Source: a virus
Taxonomy: Duplodnaviria; Caudoviricetes
Virus record (IMG/VR): IMGVR_UViG_3300028585_000518
Location: 1-42,161 of that record
DNA: 42,161 bases
Direction: 5' to 3' (one strand)
A program made the translations under genes and the position numbers. Positions 1 through 35,060 of this stretch are shown here, piece after piece (position 1 is the stretch's first letter; every line of letters starts with the position of its first letter). The notes beneath the pieces are model-generated. The model was not told the origin of the DNA and did no database searches. It saw only the letters and a program-made list of their open reading frames with translations.

Positions 1-2460
1 ATGGACCTGTTCAAAGAGCAACAAGAGATCGAAGCCCGCATGGCCGACCGTGGGATCGAGCGGTATAATCGCCTCGCCCAAGCGGCCAAAGAGAACGGGG
101 ACGCAACGAGCTCCAAAGGGGTCCAGACGGTCCTCGACTCCGCTATCGTCGGCGTTGCCGAAGCCATCGACGCCTTCAAGGCAGAGGCCACCACGGGCAA
201 GGCTGGACGCCGCCACACCGCGATCAAGCGCCTCGGTGGGATCGACACGACCGAAGCCGCGTTCGTGGCCCTCCGCATCGCCCTCGACTCGATGGCAAAG
301 TCCCTGCCCGTCACCCCCATTGCGCTCGCCATCGGCAACGCTCTGGAGCTGGAGGCGCGGATGAACGCCATCGCAGAGGAGCACCCGAAGTATGTCAAGA
401 AGCTCATGGAAGACCTTGACAGCCGGACCCGGAACGTGGGCCACCGCCGCGCGGTCCTCGCCAAGGTCCTCCGGGAGAAGGAGGAGAAGTGGAACCCGTG
501 GGGGAAGAAAGACAACCTCCAGACCGGGCTCAAGCTGATCGAGCTGATCGTCTCTGCGACGGGCCTCTTTGAGGTTCGGCTCGACCGGGACGGCAAGACC
601 CAGATCGCGGTCCTCGCGCCCACCGAACGGTTCAAGGCGTGGCTGCACTCCTTGGACACCCGGTTCGCCCTGATGGCCCCCGAGCATCTCCCCTGTGTGA
701 TCCCTCCGAAGGACTGGACGGACAACACCACGGGCGGCTACCACACGGACGCTCTGGCATACCCCCCGACCCTCGTGAAGACCTCCAGCAAGGCCCACAA
801 GATGGTCCTCAAGCGGGCGAACCTCTCGAAGGTCTTCTCTGCGGTCAACGCGATCCAGCGGACCCCTTGGGCGATCAACAACCGGGTCCTCGACGTGGCC
901 CGTGTCCTGATCGAGGCCGGACGCCCGGTCGCCAAGCTGCCGGACATGGAGAACACGCCCCTACCCGCCCGCCCGGTCAACATCGACACCGACGAGGAGG
1001 CCCTCAAGGGGTGGAAGCGTGAAGCTGCGCGAACCTACGAAGGCAACCGCAAGCTCGCGGGTCGCCGGGTCGGGGTCCTCAAGACGCTGGAGATCGCCAA
1101 AGAGTTCGCACACTACGACGCGATCTACTTCCCTCACCAACTGGACTTCCGGGGCCGGGTCTATCCGATCCCGCAAGGTCTGAACCCGCAAGGCAACGAC
1201 CTGACCAAGGGCCTCCTGCACTTCGCAGAGGGGGACCCGCTGGGGGGCGTGAAGGGTCGCCGCTGGTTCCTGATCCAAGGGGCCAACACCTACGGCGTGG
1301 ACAAGGTGAGCTTCGCGGATCGCGTGAAGTGGGTCGAAGATAACGCGGAGAACATCATCCGCAGCGCAGAGAACCCGCTGGACCATACTTGGTGGCAGAC
1401 TGCGGGCGACCCCTTCTGCTTCCTCGCGTGGGCCTTTGAGTTCTCCGACTGGACGGCCTCGGGCTGCTCCGATGACTTCGTGTCCCGGATCGCCGTGGCG
1501 ATGGATGGTTCCTGCAACGGGCTCCAGCACTACTCGGCCATGCTGCGCGACCCGCGCGGTGGGGCTGCCACCAACCTGCTGCCCTCGGACACCCCGCAGG
1601 ACATTTATGGGGAGGTGGCAAAGGTTGCCCAGAAGCGCCTCGACCGGGACCCCGCAGAGGTCAAGAAGGACGCCAAGAAGGAGGAACAGGAGAATGCAAT
1701 CTCGGATGCCGTCTTCCACGTCGCATGGCGGGGCTACGGCCTCACCCGTGCGGAGACGAAGCGCCCGGTCATGGTCCTGCCCTACGGCGGCACCCAACGA
1801 TCCTGCCTCGACTATGTGTATGAGGCTGTGAAGGATCGCGGCGGCTACCCGTTCACGGACGAACAGCTCCACAAGGCAACCGTCTACCTTGGTGGCGTCG
1901 TGTGGAAGTCCATCAACGAAGTCGTCACGTCCGCCACGCTGGCGATGGGGTGGCTCAAGGCGGTCGCATCGGCAGTCTCGAAGGAGAACCTCCCGATCAT
2001 CTGGACAACGCCCGTGGGGTTCCCCGTGGTGCAAGCCTACCCCCAGATGGACTCCACGCGGATCGAGTGCCTCCTCTTCGGGGACCGCTTCGTGCCCCGC
2101 ATGGACGTTGCCAGCGAGACGGAGATCGACAAGCGGCGTCAGGCTAACGGCGTGGCCCCTAACTTCGTCCACTCGATGGACGCCTCTGCGCTGATGGCAA
2201 CGGTCAACCACGCGGCAGAACAGGGCGTCACCAAGTTCGCCATGATCCACGACAGCTACGGCACCACGGCGGGCCAGACAGCAATCCTCGCGGAGTCTCT
2301 GCGGGAGGCGTTCGTGTCCATGTATGAGGAGAATGACGTGCTCGCCAACTTCCTCCAAGAGGTGGTCCCTGCGGGCATCCGAGACTCCATCCCCACGGCA
2401 CCTTTCGTCGGTGGGCTGGACCTGCAAAGCGTGAAGGAATCTCTTTATTTCTTTGCCTAA
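1..2460 (+). CDS. Single-subunit T7-like phage RNA polymerase (gp1)
   Basis: Motifs DFRGRVYP, DGSCNGLQH, KRPVMVLPYG, PNFVHSMDA, IHDSYGT and C-terminal YFFA. Confidence 0.99.
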   Translation: MDLFKEQQEIEARMADRGIERYNRLAQAAKENGDATSSKGVQTVLDSAIVGVAEAIDAFKAEATTGKAGRRHTAIKRLGGIDTTEAAFVALRIALDSMAKSLPVTPIALAIGNALELEARMNAIAEEHPKYVKKLMEDLDSRTRNVGHRRAVLAKVLREKEEKWNPWGKKDNLQTGLKLIELIVSATGLFEVRLDRDGKTQIAVLAPTERFKAWLHSLDTRFALMAPEHLPCVIPPKDWTDNTTGGYHTDALAYPPTLVKTSSKAHKMVLKRANLSKVFSAVNAIQRTPWAINNRVLDVARVLIEAGRPVAKLPDMENTPLPARPVNIDTDEEALKGWKREAARTYEGNRKLAGRRVGVLKTLEIAKEFAHYDAIYFPHQLDFRGRVYPIPQGLNPQGNDLTKGLLHFAEGDPLGGVKGRRWFLIQGANTYGVDKVSFADRVKWVEDNAENIIRSAENPLDHTWWQTAGDPFCFLAWAFEFSDWTASGCSDDFVSRIAVAMDGSCNGLQHYSAMLRDPRGGAATNLLPSDTPQDIYGEVAKVAQKRLDRDPAEVKKDAKKEEQENAISDAVFHVAWRGYGLTRAETKRPVMVLPYGGTQRSCLDYVYEAVKDRGGYPFTDEQLHKATVYLGGVVWKSINEVVTSATLAMGWLKAVASAVSKENLPIIWTTPVGFPVVQAYPQMDSTRIECLLFGDRFVPRMDVASETEIDKRRQANGVAPNFVHSMDASALMATVNHAAEQGVTKFAMIHDSYGTTAGQTAILAESLREAFVSMYEENDVLANFLQEVVPAGIRDSIPTAPFVGGLDLQSVKESLYFFA

Positions 2461-2478: not shown

Positions 2479-2495
2479 TTACCCCACCGTTTAGG
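2478..2495 (+). promoter_or_regulatory. Phage RNAP promoter, copy 1 (middle genes), predicted +1 G2494
   Basis: ATTACCCCACCGTTTAGG recurs 5 times, intergenic or at a gene end, with T7/T3-like -17..+2 geometry. Confidence 0.9.
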
Positions 2496-2529
2496 TCAAT
2501 TCACAATTCAAATCTCAATGAGGTTCCCA

Positions 2530-20688: not shown

Positions 20689-23079
20689 ATGGCCGGAGGA
20701 CTCTTCGGAACGAATACGCCGGACGCGCAGCTCCAACAGCAACGCCTCCAGCCCGCCGCGACACCGGGGAGCACCTTTGTCCGCCCTGTTCAGGCGCAGA
20801 CGGGGGGCAACCTCCGGGCCCTGACGGACGCTCTGGGGAGCCTGAACGGTTCCCTCCAGCAATACGGTCAGGTCCAAGACAAGATCAACGACAACCCCGA
20901 GTCCCTCGCCAACCGCGAGTGGATCGCACAGCGCCAACAGATGACCTCGGAGGAGCTCCGCGCCGAAGCCGCAGCGGGAACCCCGAACGGCATCCGGGTC
21001 CGACAGGACGCCCTCGACGGCCTTCTGGGGGAACGTGGGAACGCCGACTGGCGGCAGGACTGGGGCACCCACTATAACACCGACTTCGACCGCTCCAACG
21101 GTGATGTTGCCGGGGACTATGACGCCCGCCGCGCAGAGTTTGCCGAGGGGCTCCCTTCGGAGATCGCACGGGGCAACTTCTACCGCCTGACGGAGCCGCA
21201 CCGGGCCACGGTAATTGCCGAAGCCACGGGTGAGCGGATCGCGTCTGCCAAGCAACAGATCAACACCACGATCATTGATAGCTGGCACACCCAGATCGCG
21301 GACGCCACCAAGAGCGGTTCGGCTGATGTTGGTGCCCTCGCCGCCTCCATCATGGACAGCGCCGCCTCCAATCAGACCTTCTACGGGCAATCACAGAAGG
21401 AGCAGGAGGGGACGATCTACGGGCTGGCCGAGCGGGTGGCGCTGGAAGGTAAACCCGAGCTGGCTAAGGCGATCCTGAACGCGCCCCGCAAGGGGCCTGA
21501 TGGGTCCACCCTGCCCTCCCTCGCCTCCATGCCAGCCTATGCCACCAAGTCGGCTTCGCTGGTGGAGAGCGCCAACGGGGTCCGCACCAAGCTGGACGAC
21601 GAGCAGAGCTTCCCGCTCCGCGCCGAAGTGGACCGCAAGCTGGTCATGGGAGAGCTGACGGAAGAGGACGTGAAGGTCCTGCCAGACACGCTCTACTCCA
21701 ATACACGTAAGGCAGCACTACTGACCCAATCCGAGGGGAACCGACAGGCGATCCTCACGCGCACCCAGACAGCCGAGCACAAGGCAGCTCTGGCCCGCTA
21801 TGCGGATCAGGCGCGGTTCGACGTGCAGTCCTCCGTTATGGCCGTCATGGGCCAAGTAGGTGGCGCTCCGAAGCTAAAGGACGTTCAAGTCCCGACAGCA
21901 TCCGGTGGCACCGAAACCTACACCCGCGAGGCCCAGATCGAGGACGTAAGGACCCTCATGGAAAGCCGATGGGAGGATCAGGAAGCCGCCCTCGTGGCGC
22001 AGAACATGGACCCCGCAGAGGCAGCCCAACAGATGCAGGGGGTCCGTCTGGCGTGGTATGAGGCGAACAACGTCCACAATGAACAGTGGGCGGATATGTT
22101 CTCGGGTCTGCCCGTCGCGGCCAACGCTGACGTGCTGATGAAGAACCCCGAGGCCGCTGCCAACTTCACCCAAACGGCTGACCTCTATCGCCAGATCAAA
22201 GCATCCAACCCGGCCTATGCCGCCACGCTTCTTGATCCCAAGAGCCGCGACTTCCTCGACAGCTACGACATGGCCGTCACGTTCAACCGCATGACGCCTA
22301 ACGACGCCATCGGGTGGGCTGCCGGGTGGGCCGCTAAGACGGACACCGAGAAGGCCCGGCTGACGATCAAACCGCAGGACGCCGACCGCATCGTGGGCCG
22401 GGTTCTCCGTCGCATCGGTGCAGAGGCTCACGGAGAGAGCTCCGCTATCATCAACCAGAAGCTCCAAGCCATGAGCGCCCTCGGGATGAACGAAGGGGCG
22501 ATGGAGAGGAACCTCCGGGCGTGGGCAGAGGACAGCACTTACGTCATCAACGGGATGGCTATGCCCGCCATGCGGGACCTCCCCCAAGACTTCCCCATCC
22601 TCGCGGACATGGAGCTTGATCGGGTCTTCGCAGAACGGGGTGAAGCCCTCGGGATCGAGGACTCCGAAGACCTGTTCCTTCAACCCGTCAGCGGGGAGAC
22701 GAAATGGCAAGTCTGGAGCAAGACCGTGGGCGGCCCCGTGGGCAACGTCTTCGTCACCCCGGAGAGCCTCGACAGCCAACGTCAGGCACAACACCAGACG
22801 CGCATCGCGGCAGCCAATGCCGAGAAGGACGGGGACCAACAGTCGTTCAACGATTACGTCGCCCACCAGCGTTCGGTCATCCAGTGGCACCGGGAGAACC
22901 GGGGCAAGCTGGGCCGATGGGCGGCGGACGGATGGGAGCGCGATCTGGAGGAGTATATCCAGTCCCGCGATCCGAACCATGTGGCAGCACAACGGGCCGC
23001 ACGACAGTCCGAGGAACGCGAGCTCGCAAGGGCAAATGCGCTGAACCTCGGGTTCGCTGATCCCTTCCCCGGCCAATAA
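20689..23079 (+). CDS. Internal virion protein (gp15-like)
   Basis: 796 aa, helical; synteny. Confidence 0.8.
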   Translation: MAGGLFGTNTPDAQLQQQRLQPAATPGSTFVRPVQAQTGGNLRALTDALGSLNGSLQQYGQVQDKINDNPESLANREWIAQRQQMTSEELRAEAAAGTPNGIRVRQDALDGLLGERGNADWRQDWGTHYNTDFDRSNGDVAGDYDARRAEFAEGLPSEIARGNFYRLTEPHRATVIAEATGERIASAKQQINTTIIDSWHTQIADATKSGSADVGALAASIMDSAASNQTFYGQSQKEQEGTIYGLAERVALEGKPELAKAILNAPRKGPDGSTLPSLASMPAYATKSASLVESANGVRTKLDDEQSFPLRAEVDRKLVMGELTEEDVKVLPDTLYSNTRKAALLTQSEGNRQAILTRTQTAEHKAALARYADQARFDVQSSVMAVMGQVGGAPKLKDVQVPTASGGTETYTREAQIEDVRTLMESRWEDQEAALVAQNMDPAEAAQQMQGVRLAWYEANNVHNEQWADMFSGLPVAANADVLMKNPEAAANFTQTADLYRQIKASNPAYAATLLDPKSRDFLDSYDMAVTFNRMTPNDAIGWAAGWAAKTDTEKARLTIKPQDADRIVGRVLRRIGAEAHGESSAIINQKLQAMSALGMNEGAMERNLRAWAEDSTYVINGMAMPAMRDLPQDFPILADMELDRVFAERGEALGIEDSEDLFLQPVSGETKWQVWSKTVGGPVGNVFVTPESLDSQRQAQHQTRIAAANAEKDGDQQSFNDYVAHQRSVIQWHRENRGKLGRWAADGWERDLEEYIQSRDPNHVAAQRAARQSEERELARANALNLGFADPFPGQ

Positions 23080-23093
23080 CCCCACCGTTTAGG
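23076..23093 (+). promoter_or_regulatory. Phage RNAP promoter, copy 3, overlapping the gp15 stop codon
   Basis: ATAACCCCACCGTTTAGG, one mismatch. Confidence 0.85.
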
Positions 23094-23106
23094 TCAATCA
23101 CATCAC

Positions 23107-30460: not shown

Positions 30461-30684
30461 GCAAAGCAACCACCGAGCTGCTTGAGAAAATCCACCAACA
30501 ACTGGCGAAAGACATGCTGGAGCTGTTGGAAAGCGGAGAGGCACAAGCCAAGGACTGGGCGGTGATCGTCAAGTTCCTAAAGGACAACAACATCGACGCG
30601 ATCCCGACCGGGGATGGAGACACCAACAACGCCTTCGCGGCTATGGTGGAACGCGCCAAAGAGAGCATCGCTAAATACCAATGA
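30457..30684 (+). CDS. Terminase small subunit (gp18-like)
   Basis: KAT..LL..IH, KFLKDNNI. Confidence 0.9.
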   Translation: MSKATTELLEKIHQQLAKDMLELLESGEAQAKDWAVIVKFLKDNNIDAIPTGDGDTNNAFAAMVERAKESIAKYQ

Positions 30685-32414
30685 CGAAGATCGCCCAGTT
30701 GGGCTCTTCGACACACCTCGCGGGGTCTTCGGACCCCCTTCGAGACGACTTCAAGACCTTCCTCTTCCTGATCTGGACCTTCCTGAACCTGCCCGAGCCG
30801 ACCCGGACGCAATACGTCATGGCCGAGTGGCTCCAGAACGGACCCGAGAAGCTCGTGATCGAAGCCTTCCGGGGCATCGGGAAGAGCTGGGTGACGGCAG
30901 CCTATGTCTGCTGGCTGCTCTACCGCGATCCGCAGCTCAAGATCATGGTCGTGTCCGCCTCCAAGCTCCGGGCCGACGACTTCTCAACCTTCACCCTGCG
31001 GCTGATCGAGGAAATCCCATTCCTCCAGCACCTCCAGCCCAAGCAAGGCCAGCGGTCCTCCAAGATCGCCTTCGACGTGGGCCCCGCGCGGGCCGATCAG
31101 TCGCCCTCCGTGAAGTCCGTGGGCATCACCGGGCAGCTCACCGGGTCCCGTGCTGACGTTATCATCGCGGACGACATTGAGGTCACGAACAACTCGGCCA
31201 CGCAGGGGATGCGGGACAAGCTGAAAGAGCTCACCAAAGAGTTCTCGGCTATCCTCAAGCCCCTGCCCTCATCGAAGATCATCTATCTGGGCACTCCCCA
31301 GACCGAACAGTCGATCTACAACGGGCTCCCCGAGCGCGGCTATGAGATCAGGATCATCCCCTCCAAGTATCCCACGCCCGTCCAGACAGCCCGCTACGGG
31401 CCCCGTCTAGCGGCCTACTTGGTGGCGGAGCTGGAGCAGGACCCCACCCTTGCGGGCAAGCCCGTATGCACCCGGTTCAACGCCGAGACGCTCATGGAGA
31501 AGATGGCCGAGTATGGTCAGGCAGGGTTCGCCCTCCAGTTCATGCTCGACACGTCGCTTGCTGACGCCGACCGCTACCCGCTCAAGCTCTCGGACATGAT
31601 GTTCATGGACTTGGACAAGGAGCGCGGTCCCGTGCAGCTTGCATGGGCCAATGACCCGGCCCTCGTGATCCAAGAGGTGCCCATCGTGGGCTTCGACGGG
31701 GACAAGGCATACCGCCCCATGATGGTCAGCAAGGATGAGTGGCTGCCATACACCGGGATCGTCATGGCTATCGACCCCTCGGGGCGCGGTGGTGACGAAA
31801 CTGGATATGCCATCGTGGCGATCCTGAACGGGCGGCTCTTCCTGCTGGACGCCGGGGGGTTCTCGGGCGGCTATGAAGATGCCACGCTGGAGTCCCTCGC
31901 ATACAAGGCCAAGGAGTATGGCGTCCGGGAGATCATCATCGAACCCAACTTCGGGGACGGCATGTTCAACAAAATCCTGGGCCCGGTTATCAACCGCATC
32001 TACCCCTGCAAGATCAGCGAAACCGAACGGTCGAAAGGCCAGAAGGAACAGCGGATGGTGGACACCTTGGAGCCTGTCCTGAACGGGCACCGTCTGGTGG
32101 TCGATAGGGGGCTGCTGGAGCGGGACTACAGGAGCACGGAGCAACTCCCCCCGGAGAAGCAGAACCGCTACCGCCTGTTCTTCCAGCTCACCCGTGTGAC
32201 GCGGGATCGTGGCGCTCTGGTCAAGGACGACAGACTGGATGCCGTGGCGATGGCCGTCCACTACTGGACTTCGGCAATGGCCCGCGACGTGGAGAAGGCA
32301 GCCGAACAGACACGCGCAGAGGCCCTCGACAGGGAGCTTGAAAACTTCATGCGCCACGTTGTCGGAGGTGCCCCTATGGCCCTCTCAATCATCGACAGGG
32401 GCTTCCTTCGGTGA
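30681..32414 (+). CDS. Terminase large subunit (gp19-like)
   Basis: AFRGIGKSW, GQLTGSRAD, YLGTPQ, IDPSGRGGDE, DDRLD. Confidence 0.98.
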   Translation: MTKIAQLGSSTHLAGSSDPLRDDFKTFLFLIWTFLNLPEPTRTQYVMAEWLQNGPEKLVIEAFRGIGKSWVTAAYVCWLLYRDPQLKIMVVSASKLRADDFSTFTLRLIEEIPFLQHLQPKQGQRSSKIAFDVGPARADQSPSVKSVGITGQLTGSRADVIIADDIEVTNNSATQGMRDKLKELTKEFSAILKPLPSSKIIYLGTPQTEQSIYNGLPERGYEIRIIPSKYPTPVQTARYGPRLAAYLVAELEQDPTLAGKPVCTRFNAETLMEKMAEYGQAGFALQFMLDTSLADADRYPLKLSDMMFMDLDKERGPVQLAWANDPALVIQEVPIVGFDGDKAYRPMMVSKDEWLPYTGIVMAIDPSGRGGDETGYAIVAILNGRLFLLDAGGFSGGYEDATLESLAYKAKEYGVREIIIEPNFGDGMFNKILGPVINRIYPCKISETERSKGQKEQRMVDTLEPVLNGHRLVVDRGLLERDYRSTEQLPPEKQNRYRLFFQLTRVTRDRGALVKDDRLDAVAMAVHYWTSAMARDVEKAAEQTRAEALDRELENFMRHVVGGAPMALSIIDRGFLR

Positions 32415-32841: not shown

Positions 32842-32859
32842 ATTACCCCACCGTTTAGG
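32842..32859 (+). promoter_or_regulatory. Phage RNAP promoter, copy 4 (phiOR-like, pointing into the terminal repeat)
   Basis: Exact motif; no gene downstream before the genome-end region. Confidence 0.9.
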
Positions 32860-33161
32860 AGGAGGACCCCCTTTACATACCTATGGATGATATATGTGGG
32901 GTAGTAAGGGATGACCAATGTGGGGTCCTAGCCGTGCTACAGCGGGGAGCACCACCACTCCGTCCATCCCTCATACACCCCTGACGGGATGAACAATGTA
33001 GGGTCGATCCCTCCCACCTCCTCACCTCGGGCTACGCCCTCGGCAAGGAGGTCAACCCCTTGACAGCAAATGACATTGGCCCTGTGGCTTTGAGGTCTAT
33101 GCGACAGCACACCGCTTTGACAAACCGAAATAATTGAGACGAAAAAATCCGAGGCACTGAC

Positions 33162-33431
33162 CTCGACTGGTGAGGAACGCGCGTCCCCCCGTGCCCCCGC
33201 GCGGTAATAGCTCCCACGCGCATCATGATCGCCCGCGCGGACATAGCTCCCGCCCGCGTCTTTGCCTTGCAAGTCACACATTTGGGCACTCCTCAAGGCT
33301 AACCCATTGTTATCATTAGGTTCCCACCAGATGCTACATCTGTCGCCCTAGCATTGGGCACCACTAGGCCACCAATCGGGGCACCACGGGGCACCTAATA
33401 GGTCACACATGCTGACCTTCTCTGTCCTTCT
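33162..33431. repeat. Probable terminal direct repeat, single collapsed copy, boundaries approximate
   Basis: Preceded by AAAAAATCCGAG, contains CCCCCCGTGCCCCC, ends TCTCTGTCCTTCT|ATCTGTT like T7 TCTCTGTGTCCCT|ATCTGTT. Confidence 0.55.
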
Positions 33432-33438
33432 ATCTGTT
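33431..33438 (+). terminator. Class II / concatemer-junction pause signal TATCTGTT
   Basis: Matches the T7 HATCTGTT element in the equivalent position. Confidence 0.7.
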
Positions 33439-33458
33439 TTGTTATCTTATCACATTGC

Positions 33459-33725
33459 ACCCATCGGCCACCCATAGGCCACCACTAGGCCACCACGGGG
33501 CATCCCTGCCCGCGATCCCACTAGGCCACCCATAGGCCACCCATAGGCCACCCATAGGCCACCACGGGGCACCAATCGGGGCATCACGGGGCACCAAATC
33601 AGCCCCATATCGGGACCATATAGGCCACCACGGGGCACCAATCGGGGCATCACGGGGCACCAAATCAGCCCCATATCGGGACCATATAGGCCACCACGGG
33701 GCACCAATCGGGGCATCACGGGCAC
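33459..33725. repeat. Genome-end repeat array: 11-bp CCCATAGGCCA-type units and a 66-bp tandem repeat (~2.6 copies)
   Basis: 66-bp units start at 33555, 33621 and 33687. Confidence 0.92.
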
Positions 33726-33795: not shown

Positions 33796-33824
33796 TTGCA
33801 ATCATCCCGACAGCGGGCCTATCT
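33796..33824 (+). promoter_or_regulatory. Host sigma70-type early promoter TTGCAA-N17-CTATCT with an operator copy (33805-33818) in the spacer
   Basis: Resembles alphaproteobacterial TTGAC-N17-CTATAT; AT-rich upstream; at the start of the early region. Confidence 0.65.
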
Positions 33825-34094
33825 ATGTCTCACCGAAAGGGACCACGGCAGACGGCGGGAACGCCAGAGCAGGACCCGGACGGGCAGACCCTAGCAACTG
33901 CGCCACCACGGCTGAACGGGCTAGACGGACATTAAGTGGGAAAACCGGGAACCATAGGCCCACCCTGACGACCGCAAGGACAAGCGGGAAAGGCGCGACA
34001 GGCGAAAGCGGCAGTCTAGCGTCAACCGGAACGAAAGGGACAGGCGAAAGCGGCAATCCCAACGACGACACGAAGACACGACACGACCAAATCA

Positions 34095-34108
34095 TCCCGT
34101 TAGCGGGA
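34095..34108. promoter_or_regulatory. Operator-like palindrome copy (TCCCGTTAGCGGGA)
   Basis: Preceded by ATCA. Confidence 0.75.
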
Positions 34109-34109
34109 C

Positions 34110-34121
34110 CGCTCTTTGAAA
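34110..34121 (+). promoter_or_regulatory. boxA-like antitermination element
   Basis: CGCTCTTTGAAA resembles rrn/lambda boxA. Confidence 0.6.
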
Positions 34122-34217
34122 CTGTTGGAACCCTACGCCTAGCGGCTTGCCGCGATAATGGCCTTCGATAGGGCAGGAAAGCGCCGCGACAATCACGCGG
34201 GGCAACGCTCCTGCCCA

Positions 34218-34274
34218 TTGGTTCGGGTGCTGATGCTGCATCCCTGATGATGCCCTAGCAGGGGCGAAAACCAA
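34218..34274 (+). ncRNA. Type III hammerhead ribozyme 1; predicted cleavage after C34224
   Basis: UUGGUU-C | GGGUGC-UGAUGCU-GCAUCC | CUGAUGA-U | GCCCU-AGCA-GGGGC | GAA-AACCAA; all three stems pair. Confidence 0.92.
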
Positions 34275-34287
34275 CGGAGTGACGGAC

Positions 34288-34479
34288 ATGACGAAGAGAA
34301 GACGGGCAACGGTCCAAGTCTATGAGCAGAAGACAACGCGGGAAGGGATTGCGATCCGCGAGACTTTCCTCGGTGGGTTTGAGGTGCGCGTGGTCAACTG
34401 GTCCCGCCCCACGAAGAGAAGACGCTACACGGGCAGGTTCGCCCGTCTCTGGTCCAAACTGGACTATTGGCTCCGCTAG
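34288..34479 (+). CDS. First early gene, 63-aa basic protein between the two ribozymes
   Basis: GGAG RBS at 34276, ATG 34288; Arg-rich. Confidence 0.7.
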   Translation: MTKRRRATVQVYEQKTTREGIAIRETFLGGFEVRVVNWSRPTKRRRYTGRFARLWSKLDYWLR

Positions 34480-34486
34480 GGGCCGC

Positions 34487-34539
34487 GTGTCGGGGCATGA
34501 CGCTTGCCCCCTGATGATGGTCTAGCAGGACCGAAACAC
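34487..34539 (+). ncRNA. Type III hammerhead ribozyme 2; predicted cleavage after C34491
   Basis: GUGU-C | GGGGCA-UGACGCU-UGCCCC | CUGAUGA-U | GGUCU-AGCA-GGACC | GAA-ACAC; stems covary with copy 1. Confidence 0.92.
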
Positions 34540-34572
34540 CCGCCATTATTGCGCCTCTGTGCGCCCAAATCG

Positions 34573-34586
34573 TCCCCATAGCGGGA
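34573..34586. promoter_or_regulatory. Operator-like palindrome copy (TCCCCATAGCGGGA)
   Basis: Preceded by ATCG; just upstream of the RBS of the 34605 gene. Confidence 0.7.
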
Positions 34587-34604
34587 CATTCAACGGAGCA
34601 TGTC

Positions 34605-35060
34605 ATGCACCTTTCGCCAATCTATCGCCGCGCCACCCATGCCGAATATCTGGCATCGCTGGATGCCTCCAGAAGACAACGCGGGGACGCTGGCCTTTGC
34701 GTGGCGGACCCTGACAGCGGGGCAGACCTGTTCCTCTCCGCTGACGGTCTGTCTGGCTATGCGCTTGAAGGTGGGAACCTCGGGTCCGTCTTTTCGTCCG
34801 CTAAAGGTCGCCTCTCGGGTATGATCCGGGACGCCAAGAGCCGCGCCAGAAGAGCGGGCGAACATGCCCTCAAGATCGACTGTTTTGAGCCCCTCGCGGT
34901 GGTCTATGAGCGTCACGGGTTTGAGCGTTGTTCGACGCTTGCCTTTGACTGGGCATATGCCCCGGCTGGCTGGACCAAACGCCACGGAGAGCCGGACGTA
35001 GTTTTCATGTCCCTTCCGATTGTCCAGATCGTCCCGGTAGCGGGACAGATAGCGGCCTGA
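34605..35060 (+). CDS. Early protein, possible GNAT-like fold
   Basis: GGAG RBS; IDCFEPLAVVYERHGF resembles the GNAT Y...GF motif. Confidence 0.7.
   Translation: MHLSPIYRRATHAEYLASLDASRRQRGDAGLCVADPDSGADLFLSADGLSGYALEGGNLGSVFSSAKGRLSGMIRDAKSRARRAGEHALKIDCFEPLAVVYERHGFERCSTLAFDWAYAPAGWTKRHGEPDVVFMSLPIVQIVPVAGQIAA
35032..35045. promoter_or_regulatory. Operator-like palindrome copy (TCCCGGTAGCGGGA) inside the 3' end of a CDS
   Basis: Preceded by ATCG. Confidence 0.7.

What the first reader, a model, noticed from the sequence alone, without database searches (positions are those of the whole stretch)
33831..34224. About 390-nt structured noncoding RNA released by the first ribozyme
Seen: no credible ORF between the early promoter and hammerhead 1, but dense nested pairing. 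Examples: GCAG(33848)/CUGC(33898) enclosing GGCG-GGAA-CGCC; GCUAGAC(33920)/GUCUAGC(34014) enclosing GUGGG/CCCAC and CC-GCAA-GG; GCGG-CUUG-CCGC; and a long GGGCAGG(34171)/CCUGCCC(34210) hairpin. The first ~260 nt are strikingly U-poor. Inference: the first RNA made on infection is a discrete ncRNA with a ribozyme-defined 3' end, possibly an antiterminator, a protein decoy or an anti-defence RNA.
Basis: partly seen in the sequence, partly recalled or inferred. Interest (0 to 1): 0.8.

Follow-up and report, generated by a model that had tools for sequence, protein, structure and literature searches.

The report
Phage leader hiding an orphan hammerhead
This 393-base non-coding stretch, likely the first RNA the phage makes, carries a copy of the signal bacteria use to read through their ribosomal-RNA genes, is likely cut free by a self-cleaving ribozyme, and contains half of a second ribozyme whose arms exactly match the phage's own RNA-polymerase message, so it may be a natural ribozyme that cuts another RNA.

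Summary
The window is a temperate T7-like provirus. 33832-34224 is the non-coding leader between its early host promoter and a complete type III hammerhead. The named helices exist and the U-poverty is real (5% vs 16%), but overall folding is not above chance (z -0.77), and two of the named helices are unlikely to form. (1) 34110-34121 is the genome's only boxA, at the position where T7 and 17 other cultured phages have one (18 of 26 stretches fetched). Most likely this is a T7-type antitermination leader in which a hammerhead replaces the RNase III site. This scan noted such leaders on other DNA before. (2) The U-poor part holds an orphan hammerhead core (33965-33991; 8 of 20,000 shuffles) with no local substrate. 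Its arms pair 6+6 Watson-Crick around a CUC triplet in the phage RNA-polymerase mRNA (228-240; 2-12 of 700-1500 control arm sets). Against it: an inverted 10.1-11.1 pair, self-paired arms, break-even energetics and no homolog. A natural trans-cleaving hammerhead acting on the lytic switch is about 27% likely and is directly testable in vitro.

The parts
33796..33824 (+). Inferred host sigma-70 early promoter (-35 TTGCAA 33796-33801, 17-nt spacer, -10 CTATCT 33819-33824)
   Evidence: Same geometry as annotated T7 A1. A promoter-operator-start pattern hit 4 of 4 true relatives in IMG/VR. Not called by the E. coli consensus scan.
33801..33819 (.). Palindromic operator-like site between -35 and -10 (likely MarR-type repressor site)
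   Evidence: 10 matches at up to 2 mismatches vs 0.2 expected. One copy abuts a phage-promoter-like repeat after the RNAP gene.
33832..33882 (+). 5'-terminal hairpin; start sequence resembles the T7 A1 transcript start
   Evidence: Local z -2.7; alignment to T7 498-516. Weak: 37 of 84,282 window 20-mers score as well.
33920..34020 (+). Domain closed by the 7-bp GCUAGAC/GUCUAGC helix, holding the orphan hammerhead core
   Evidence: Pair probability 0.97 in the isolated domain, 0.05 in the full RNA.
33959..33964 (+). Stem I arm (CCCACC) of the orphan core; pairs locally with GUGGG 33936-33940 or with the distant sites
33965..33991 (+). Orphan hammerhead core: CUGACGA, stem II CCGC/GCGG with an 8-nt loop, GAAA; the 10.1-11.1 pair is C-G
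   Evidence: One of only 3 such cores on both strands of the genome; 8 of 20,000 leader shuffles; no substrate within 130 nt.
33991..33996 (+). Stem III arm (AGGCGC) of the orphan core
33997..34016 (+). 20-nt repeat, copy 1 (GAAA-capped hairpin with internal loop)
   Evidence: 95% identical pair.
34032..34064 (+). Hairpin containing repeat copy 2 (34039-34058); resembles the T7 A1 5' hairpin
   Evidence: Local alignment to the T7 leader, 1 of 300 dinucleotide shuffles. Best hit in the genome of a T7-group model but E 0.26: suggestive only.
34091..34109 (.). Second operator-like palindrome, directly before boxA
34110..34121 (+). boxA (CGCTCTTTGAAA)
   Evidence: Only match of the 10-nt core on either strand of the window; like rrn-leader boxA of Mesorhizobium and Bartonella genomes; same position in T7 and other phages.
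34142..34153 (+). CUUG tetraloop hairpin
   Evidence: Pair probability 0.70.
34171..34216 (+). Long bulged 3' hairpin; relatives have a long hairpin before the first gene, T3 an annotated RNase III site
   Evidence: z -4.8, 0 of 200 shuffles.
34218..34274 (+). Hammerhead 1, type III, UUC triplet, predicted cut after 34224; one U inserted between A9 and G10.1; loops I and II complementary
   Evidence: Fold; its own site is the best substrate in the genome. No Rfam hit at E up to 10.
34288..34479 (+). First ORF, 63 aa, two TKRRR motifs
   Evidence: Only itself found; sequence.
34368..34381 (+). Second candidate substrate of the orphan core (CUC triplet, cut after 34371; 10-bp stem I with G-U pairs, 3-bp stem III)
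34484..34542 (+). Hammerhead 2, type III, GUC triplet, predicted cut after 34491
   Evidence: Rfam Hammerhead_3, 34.5 bits, E 2.9e-5, below the gathering score of 48.5.
228..240 (+). Best candidate substrate of the orphan core, in the phage RNA-polymerase gene (GCGCCU-C-GGUGGG, cut after 234, codon 78)
   Evidence: 6+6 Watson-Crick pairs, best of all NUH sites on the + strand.

Best explanation
The stretch is a non-coding leader, likely the start of the phage's early transcript, whose boxA likely recruits the host's ribosomal-RNA antitermination factors so that host polymerase reads through about 8 kb of early genes into the phage RNA-polymerase gene, and whose hammerhead likely cuts the leader off, as RNase III does in T7. 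Shown: no ORF, a unique boxA, a complete hammerhead, operator-like palindromes on the promoter and before boxA, and the same order of parts in relatives. Inferred: host RNA polymerase starts at A33832 when the repressor is off; the U-poor first 260 nt cannot form a U-tract terminator before boxA is reached; NusB-S10 with NusA, NusG and SuhB load at boxA (mechanism recalled from rrn operons); the hammerhead frees a 393-nt RNA and gives the first mRNA a 5'-OH end. On this reading the orphan hammerhead core in the folded part is a relic or scaffold without catalytic work.
For: boxA is unique in 42 kb and resembles rrn-leader boxA (3 of 18 genome matches lie 215-288 nt before a 16S start, 3 more share that leader sequence, 3 are in prophage leaders, 9 elsewhere). 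A boxA core lies in the early region of 9 of 13 cultured-phage stretches, 4 of 5 and 5 of 8. RHEph01 and S2B show promoter-leader-boxA-hammerhead directly; T3 and gh-1 show promoters-boxA-RNase III site. U is lower before than after boxA in 9 of 10 leaders, not all independent. LUZ100 has terminators between its host promoters and RNAP gene, and read-through is proposed there (PMC10134795 passages). Tandem hammerheads in an Agrobacterium prophage with ArdA-MarR-integrase context cleave in vitro and in vivo (PMC3088659 passages).
Against: boxA is not universal: only 8 of 63 terminase-linked loci have it within 2.5 kb, vs 3 of 63 on the opposite strand and 1 of 47 upstream. Pasto and its relatives lack it. 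Only one weak + strand terminator-like site was found between leader and RNAP (two overlapping calls near 41.1 kb). In the full-length fold the 5' half of boxA is paired. boxA needs about 12 nt, so this reading does not explain the 260-nt folded part, the intact orphan core or its 6+6 match. No RNA run holds this DNA, so nothing here shows transcription.
Confidence: 0.55

Rival explanations
1. The released 393-nt RNA is a natural trans-acting hammerhead ribozyme. Its orphan core binds the phage RNA-polymerase mRNA through two 6-bp arms and cuts after codon 78 (perhaps also at 34371 and 41967), damping polymerase synthesis and so favouring or guarding lysogeny, or timing early shut-off. This can hold together with boxA antitermination.
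For: Core in 8 of 20,000 shuffles and one of only 3 in the genome. Perfect 6+6 Watson-Crick match with an NUH triplet: 2 of 1500 random leader arm sets and 6 of 1500 shuffled arm sets did as well (13 and 26 of 1500 with a looser rule). By energy: 12, 3 and 2 of 700, and 0 of 700 in each set when the site must also lie in the RNAP gene. The top three sites all lie in the early transcript (0 of 700 in each set). The same scan returns the own sites of hammerheads 1 and 2 as their best, with weaker scores than the orphan's. The 13-nt pattern is absent from 1.65 Mb of other GC-rich loci. The target uses the minor codons GGT (14% of Gly) and GGG (31%).
Against: The 10.1-11.1 pair is C-G; all 18 complete hammerheads found here have G-C, and inversion is recalled to cost much activity (from memory). 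The arms are self-paired: opening costs 9.9 + 11.5 kcal/mol against -24.2 for binding, before a junction penalty, and cofolding shows no gain for the RNAP site. No clear loop II contact. One ordinary hammerhead (L132) has a chance distant site of similar strength (-25.6). There is no homolog; the most similar leader (L051) lacks the core; 0 of 5 relatives show a core-flanked match in the RNAP parts held. The idea arose after many looks at the sequence.
Confidence: 0.27
2. The released RNA is a stable protein decoy or anti-defence RNA made before any phage protein; the two GAAA-capped repeats would be the binding sites.
For: It occupies the first-expressed slot. Relatives carry different, large, covarying RNAs here: in the Pasto/Mesorhizobium family 11 of 56 pairs have compensatory changes (0 of 500 shuffles; structure derived from the same 6 sequences). 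Both ends are hairpins.
Against: No Rfam family. GGA is not enriched, so it is not a CsrA-type sponge. The window RNA does not match those families by profile search. No partner can be named.
Confidence: 0.12
3. Lambda-like N/nut control: the first ORF (two arginine-rich TKRRR motifs) binds the two GAAA hairpins and acts with boxA.
For: The order promoter, hairpins, boxA, processing site, arginine-rich small gene recalls lambda pL-nutL-N (from memory); two motifs and two repeats.
Against: The ORF has no homolog. First genes of boxA-bearing relatives differ. The hairpins lie before boxA, and their top stems are only 2 bp.
Confidence: 0.04
4. The region is coding (131-aa antisense ORF) or a neutral spacer.
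For: An antisense ORF spans it; overall folding is at chance level.
Against: No homolog; the ORF follows from A-poverty of that strand; boxA, operators and hammerhead are specific + strand signals.
Confidence: 0.02

Closest known systems
Phage T7/T3 early leader (host promoters A1-A3, boxA, RNase III site R0.3, gene 0.3)
   Same: Position next to the terminal repeats, promoter geometry, similar first 18 nt, boxA before the processing site. A1 to R0.3 is also about 390 nt (cut position recalled).
   Different: One promoter under operator-like sites, a temperate phage, a hammerhead at the cut, a U-poor multi-hairpin domain and an orphan hammerhead core.
Tandem prophage hammerheads of Agrobacterium C58 and Azorhizobium (Perreault et al. 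2011, PMC3088659; passages, section 8 and supplement searches read)
   Same: Hammerheads flanking early genes ahead of MarR and integrase; proposed to cut long transcripts into units.
   Different: Those act in cis. The passages read describe no leader RNA, boxA or orphan core.
rrn antitermination (boxB-boxA; NusB-S10, NusA, NusG, SuhB)
   Same: boxA sequence and position in a leader; hairpins upstream. Mechanism recalled.
   Different: On a phage mRNA leader; factor dependence untested.
Engineered trans-cleaving hammerheads and the discontinuous Clec2 hammerhead
   Same: Enzyme strand with core and stem II, arms for stems I and III, NUH site (PMC6155905 and PMC12192606, passages).
   Different: [quoted passage not shown] Here enzyme and site would be on separate molecules, and the 10.1-11.1 pair is inverted.
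LUZ100-type temperate T7-like phages (PMC10134795, passages)
   Same: MarR-like regulator, integrase, boxA after a host promoter.
   Different: No ribozyme or leader RNA in the passages read; RNAP control there is proposed to be by repressor and terminator read-through.

Membership tests
T7-type boxA early leader | Host promoter just inside the terminal-repeat region | tested here: met
   Geometry and shared pattern; sequence inference only.
T7-type boxA early leader | boxA between promoter and first gene | tested here: met
   34110-34121, unique in the genome.
T7-type boxA early leader | Processing site before the first gene | tested here: met
   Hammerhead 1 instead of an RNase III site.
T7-type boxA early leader | Sequence or structure homology to the T7 A1 5' hairpin | tested here: inconclusive
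   Best genome hit but E 0.26; no hit in the leaders of 12 other loci; the model's own covariation was not above shuffles.
rrn-type antitermination | NusB/S10-dependent read-through | not testable with these tools
   Needs a reporter assay.
rrn-type antitermination | Downstream terminators to be read through | tested here: inconclusive
   One weak + strand site near 41.1 kb; Rho sites cannot be scanned.
Type III hammerhead (hammerhead 1) | Core nucleotides, three stems, NUH triplet, G10.1-C11.1 | tested here: met
   one U inserted after A9, as in 8 of the 18 complete cores listed.
Type III hammerhead (hammerhead 1) | Rfam gathering score | tested here: not met
   No hit for hammerhead 1; hammerhead 2 scores 34.5 of 48.5.
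Type III hammerhead (hammerhead 1) | Self-cleavage | not testable with these tools
   In vitro transcription needed.
Hammerhead ribozyme (orphan core) | C3-A9, stem II, G12-A15.1 | tested here: met
   33965-33991; stem II probability 0.78-0.94.
Hammerhead ribozyme (orphan core) | G10.1-C11.1 pair | tested here: not met
   C-G here; G-C in 18 of 18 complete ones.
Hammerhead ribozyme (orphan core) | Substrate in cis nearby (stems I and III) | tested here: not met
   None within 130 nt.
Hammerhead ribozyme (orphan core) | Substrate at a distance with NUH | tested here: met
   228-240, 6+6 Watson-Crick.
Hammerhead ribozyme (orphan core) | Stem I-loop II tertiary contact | tested here: inconclusive
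   No complement of loop II near the RNAP site; one 4-mer 29 nt after the 34371 site.
Hammerhead ribozyme (orphan core) | Cleavage activity; arm-target covariation | not testable with these tools
   No homolog found.
CsrA/RsmA sponge RNAs | Many GGA motifs in loops | tested here: not met
   11 vs 10.6 expected.
Any Rfam 15 family (for the leader itself) | Model match | tested here: not met
   0 at gathering; only hammerhead 2 at E up to 10.
Lambda N/nut | boxB after boxA and a conserved arginine-rich antiterminator | tested here: inconclusive
   TKRRR motifs present, no homolog.

The most novel reading that the evidence does not exclude
The phage uses one hammerhead to release a second, trans-acting hammerhead ribozyme that cleaves its own RNA-polymerase mRNA: a natural RNA enzyme acting on another RNA as part of the lysis-lysogeny switch.
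Probability: 0.27. Interest if true: 0.95.

Novelty: new variant of a known kind. Interest (0 to 1): 0.72.

Why it matters
On the likely reading it shows that the T7 early-leader plan (host promoter, boxA, cut site) is kept in temperate alphaproteobacterial phages with a ribozyme swapped for RNase III, which gives prophage hammerheads a concrete job. On the novel reading it would be a natural small ribozyme that cleaves a different RNA; a review read here says natural hammerheads are known to act only in cis (PMC6155905). It would also be an RNA-only brake on the master lytic gene. One cleavage gel decides it.

Tried and rejected
Homolog searches for the RNA: blastn against cultured phages, none. 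Pattern scans of viral contigs gave 19, 7 and 6 stretches, all chance or non-homologous apart from L051's own contig. The metagenome scan gave 2 stretches, one identical copy and one chance hit. Relatives of the second early gene were too distant; the repressor search gave none. So no covariation test on this RNA was possible. Sequencing runs: no RNA holder listed; the three DNA runs are near-identical and show no variation in the leader. Profile HMMs of three relative leader families do not match the 5' domain. Pairwise alignments give only diffuse similarity to several leaders. A T7-group 5'-hairpin model was not significant. CsrA sponge, antisense ORF and an N-like first gene: unsupported. 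The reading of the palindrome as the phage-polymerase promoter was dropped, since it is missing before late genes and another repeat fits better. Pairing of an upstream purine run with boxA was noted but is expected in so purine-rich an RNA. One search used a misregistered structure; one search is the corrected count. Searches of the Perreault supplements for natural C10.1-G11.1 cores found nothing usable; figures and gapped alignments could not be read, so this is open. Ten literature searches found no paper on hammerheads or boxA in Autographiviridae leaders or on a natural trans-cleaving phage hammerhead; the library lacks most subscription papers and the older T7 literature.

Full report
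Setting. The window is a 99% complete provirus of a temperate T7-like phage: single-subunit RNA polymerase at 1-2460, T7-type replication and virion genes, terminase at 30681-32414, then a regulator, integrase and anti-repressor. The nearest cultured RNAP is that of Rhizobium phage Pasto, 50.7% identical. Short repeats at 33340-33720 mark the terminal-repeat region. Assembly pieces of the source-like run end about 30 nt after the window's end and 230 nt before base 1. This fits an attachment site between the early genes and RNAP, so that in the free phage the early transcript would run from 33832 through about 8.3 kb into RNAP (inference).

The observation. The antisense 131-aa ORF has no relative. 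The claim of dense pairing is weaker: z -0.77 for the whole, +0.24 for the 5' part, and long helices at chance level. GCAG/CUGC and CC-GCAA-GG are unlikely to form (0.0 and 0.16). The 3' hairpin is strong (z -4.8), and tetraloop-capped hairpins are in excess (6 vs 1.7; 5 of 1000). Rfam has no family for it.

Promoter and operators. TTGCAA-17-CTATCT with a start at A33832 has the spacing of the annotated T7 A1 promoter, and the first bases resemble the T7 A1 start. A pattern made of the palindrome and the start found 4 of 4 true relatives in IMG/VR. The palindrome occurs 10 times at up to 2 mismatches vs 0.2 expected: on the promoter, before boxA, before early genes, and beside a phage-promoter-like repeat after RNAP. 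I read it as the site of the MarR-like regulator, as proposed for LUZ100 (PMC10134795, passages). This is inference.

boxA. 34110-34121 is the only match of the boxA core on either strand. In five alphaproteobacterial-type genomes a 12-nt version gave 18 matches: 3 lie 215-288 nt before a 16S start, 3 share that leader sequence on contigs lacking the 16S start, 3 are in prophage leaders and 9 elsewhere. The core occurs in the early region of 9 of 13, 4 of 5 and 5 of 8 cultured-phage stretches (chosen by RNAP or T7 likeness, so not a random sample). Among terminase-linked loci it is in 8 of 63, against 3 of 63 on the other strand and 1 of 47 upstream, so it is common in close relatives but not universal. 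RHEph01 and S2B have boxA followed at once by a hammerhead; T3 and gh-1 have boxA followed by an annotated RNase III site. U is lower before than after boxA in 9 of 10 leaders, so the U-poverty is a clade habit that is extreme here.

Hammerhead 1 folds as a complete type III ribozyme with a UUC triplet and complementary loops. A genome-wide substrate scan returns its own site, 34224, as best. It carries a U after A9, seen in 8 of the 18 complete cores listed; that such insertions are tolerated is recalled. Perreault et al. showed that tandem hammerheads in an Agrobacterium prophage with the same gene context cleave in vitro and in vivo (PMC3088659; passages, section 8 and supplement searches).

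Relatives' leaders. The 21 leaders I delimited by eye run 186-536 nt and fall into several unrelated sequence families. The Pasto/Mesorhizobium family has no boxA but a large RNA with 11 of 56 pairs changed on both sides (0 of 500 shuffles; 6 sequences, structure derived from them) and no Rfam match. The slot therefore holds selected RNA structure in the clade. The window's own RNA has no close homolog, only diffuse similarity to L051, L025, T7 and a few others; a T7-group hairpin model ranks 34032-34064 first in the genome at E 0.26. Covariation could not be tested on it.

The orphan core. Inside the U-poor part lies CUGACGA, a 4-bp stem II and GAAA (33965-33991). Only three such cores exist in the genome, the other two being hammerheads 1 and 2, and 8 of 20,000 leader shuffles have one. 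Stem II is predicted to form (0.78-0.94). No substrate lies within 130 nt. Scanning all NUH sites, the best is at 234 in the RNAP gene, sense strand: six Watson-Crick pairs on each side of a CUC triplet. Controls: 2 of 1500 random leader arm sets and 6 of 1500 shuffled sets reach 6+6 (13 and 26 with a looser rule). By energy 12, 3 and 2 of 700 reach it, and none of 700 does so inside RNAP. Across all arm spacings of the leader there are 10 such 6+6 NUH matches in the genome, and one is exactly the pair flanking the core. The next two sites, 34371 and 41967, are also in the early transcript.

Against the trans reading. The pair closing stem II is C-G, whereas 18 of 18 complete hammerheads here have G-C; I recall that the inversion costs much activity, and could not check natural exceptions in the supplements. 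Both arms are self-paired, and binding to the RNAP site is about break-even (-24.2 vs 21.4 kcal/mol opening); cofolding favours only the 34371 site. An ordinary hammerhead in L132 has a chance distant site nearly as strong. L051, the most similar leader, lacks the core, and 0 of 5 relatives show a comparable match in the RNAP parts held. The local GUGGG helix gives the domain the outline of a decayed type III hammerhead, which would explain the core and leave the match to chance at about 1 in 100. I put a working trans or long-range ribozyme at 27%.

Mechanism. Most likely (0.55): with the repressor off, host polymerase starts at 33832, crosses a terminator-proof U-poor stretch, loads Nus factors at boxA and reads on to RNAP; hammerhead 1 drops the 393-nt leader and trims the first mRNA. 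The parts are shown in sequence; transcription, factor loading and cleavage are inferred. The bold extension is that the dropped RNA then cuts RNAP mRNA after codon 78, a brake on the lytic switch that could also guard a lysogen against leaky polymerase.

Novelty. The plan is T7's, and hammerheads in such prophages are published, so the leader is a new variant of a known kind. Ten searches found no paper on it, but the library lacks much of the older T7 work. This scan has noted boxA leaders with hammerheads on other DNA (unchecked notes that agree with the reading I had recorded), and nothing on a trans-acting hammerhead or on this sequence. [quoted passage not shown] PMC10914365, PMC11893012 and PMC13481778 (passages) added nothing specific. 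A confirmed trans cut would be categorically new.

Noticed in passing
L021:10808-11345, L022, L023, L182, L183 and Pasto L181:578-1050: A roughly 430-nt multi-domain RNA with clear covariation fills the early leader of Pasto and Mesorhizobium-type prophages; no boxA, no Rfam match. A candidate new large RNA family in a cultured phage.
   Followed up: partly
L024:11190-11690, L025, L184, Lo5R7ANS L234:596-1118: A second leader family: conserved 5' block, boxA at +100 to +130, then about 350 nt of structure ending in a long covarying hairpin before the first gene.
   Followed up: partly
T7 L233:498-595 and L237, L246, L250-L257: The first 100 nt of the T7-group A1 transcript form a conserved hairpin series, also in a 43-kb Klebsiella phage and an Aeromonas phage; 491 records match; no Rfam family.
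   Followed up: partly
L236 (RHEph01) 658-715, 2078-2148, 2544-2605; L242 (S2B); L243 (TRX32-1): Unannotated hammerheads in the early regions of cultured Rhizobium and Caulobacter phages, one directly behind boxA.
   Followed up: partly
L200, minus strand, core near 2501: Type I hammerhead with the same core as hammerhead 1 and a roughly 50-nt insert in loop III.
   Followed up: no
window 2479-2500, about 23075-23100, 32843-32862: A repeated CCCCACCGTTTAGG element after RNAP, before an internal virion gene and after terminase; likely the phage-polymerase promoter; the first copy abuts an operator-like palindrome.
   Followed up: no
window 33832-34700: GAAGAC occurs 5 times on the + strand vs 0.7 expected, twice giving the TKRRR motifs of the first ORF.
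   Followed up: no
window 33340-33720: Arrays of 11-nt and 66-nt repeats beside the terminal-repeat region, two carrying worn operator-like copies.
   Followed up: no
L186:10057-10320 and L191: Bartonella prophage-like loci have boxA only about 18 nt after the inferred start, a minimal leader.
   Followed up: no
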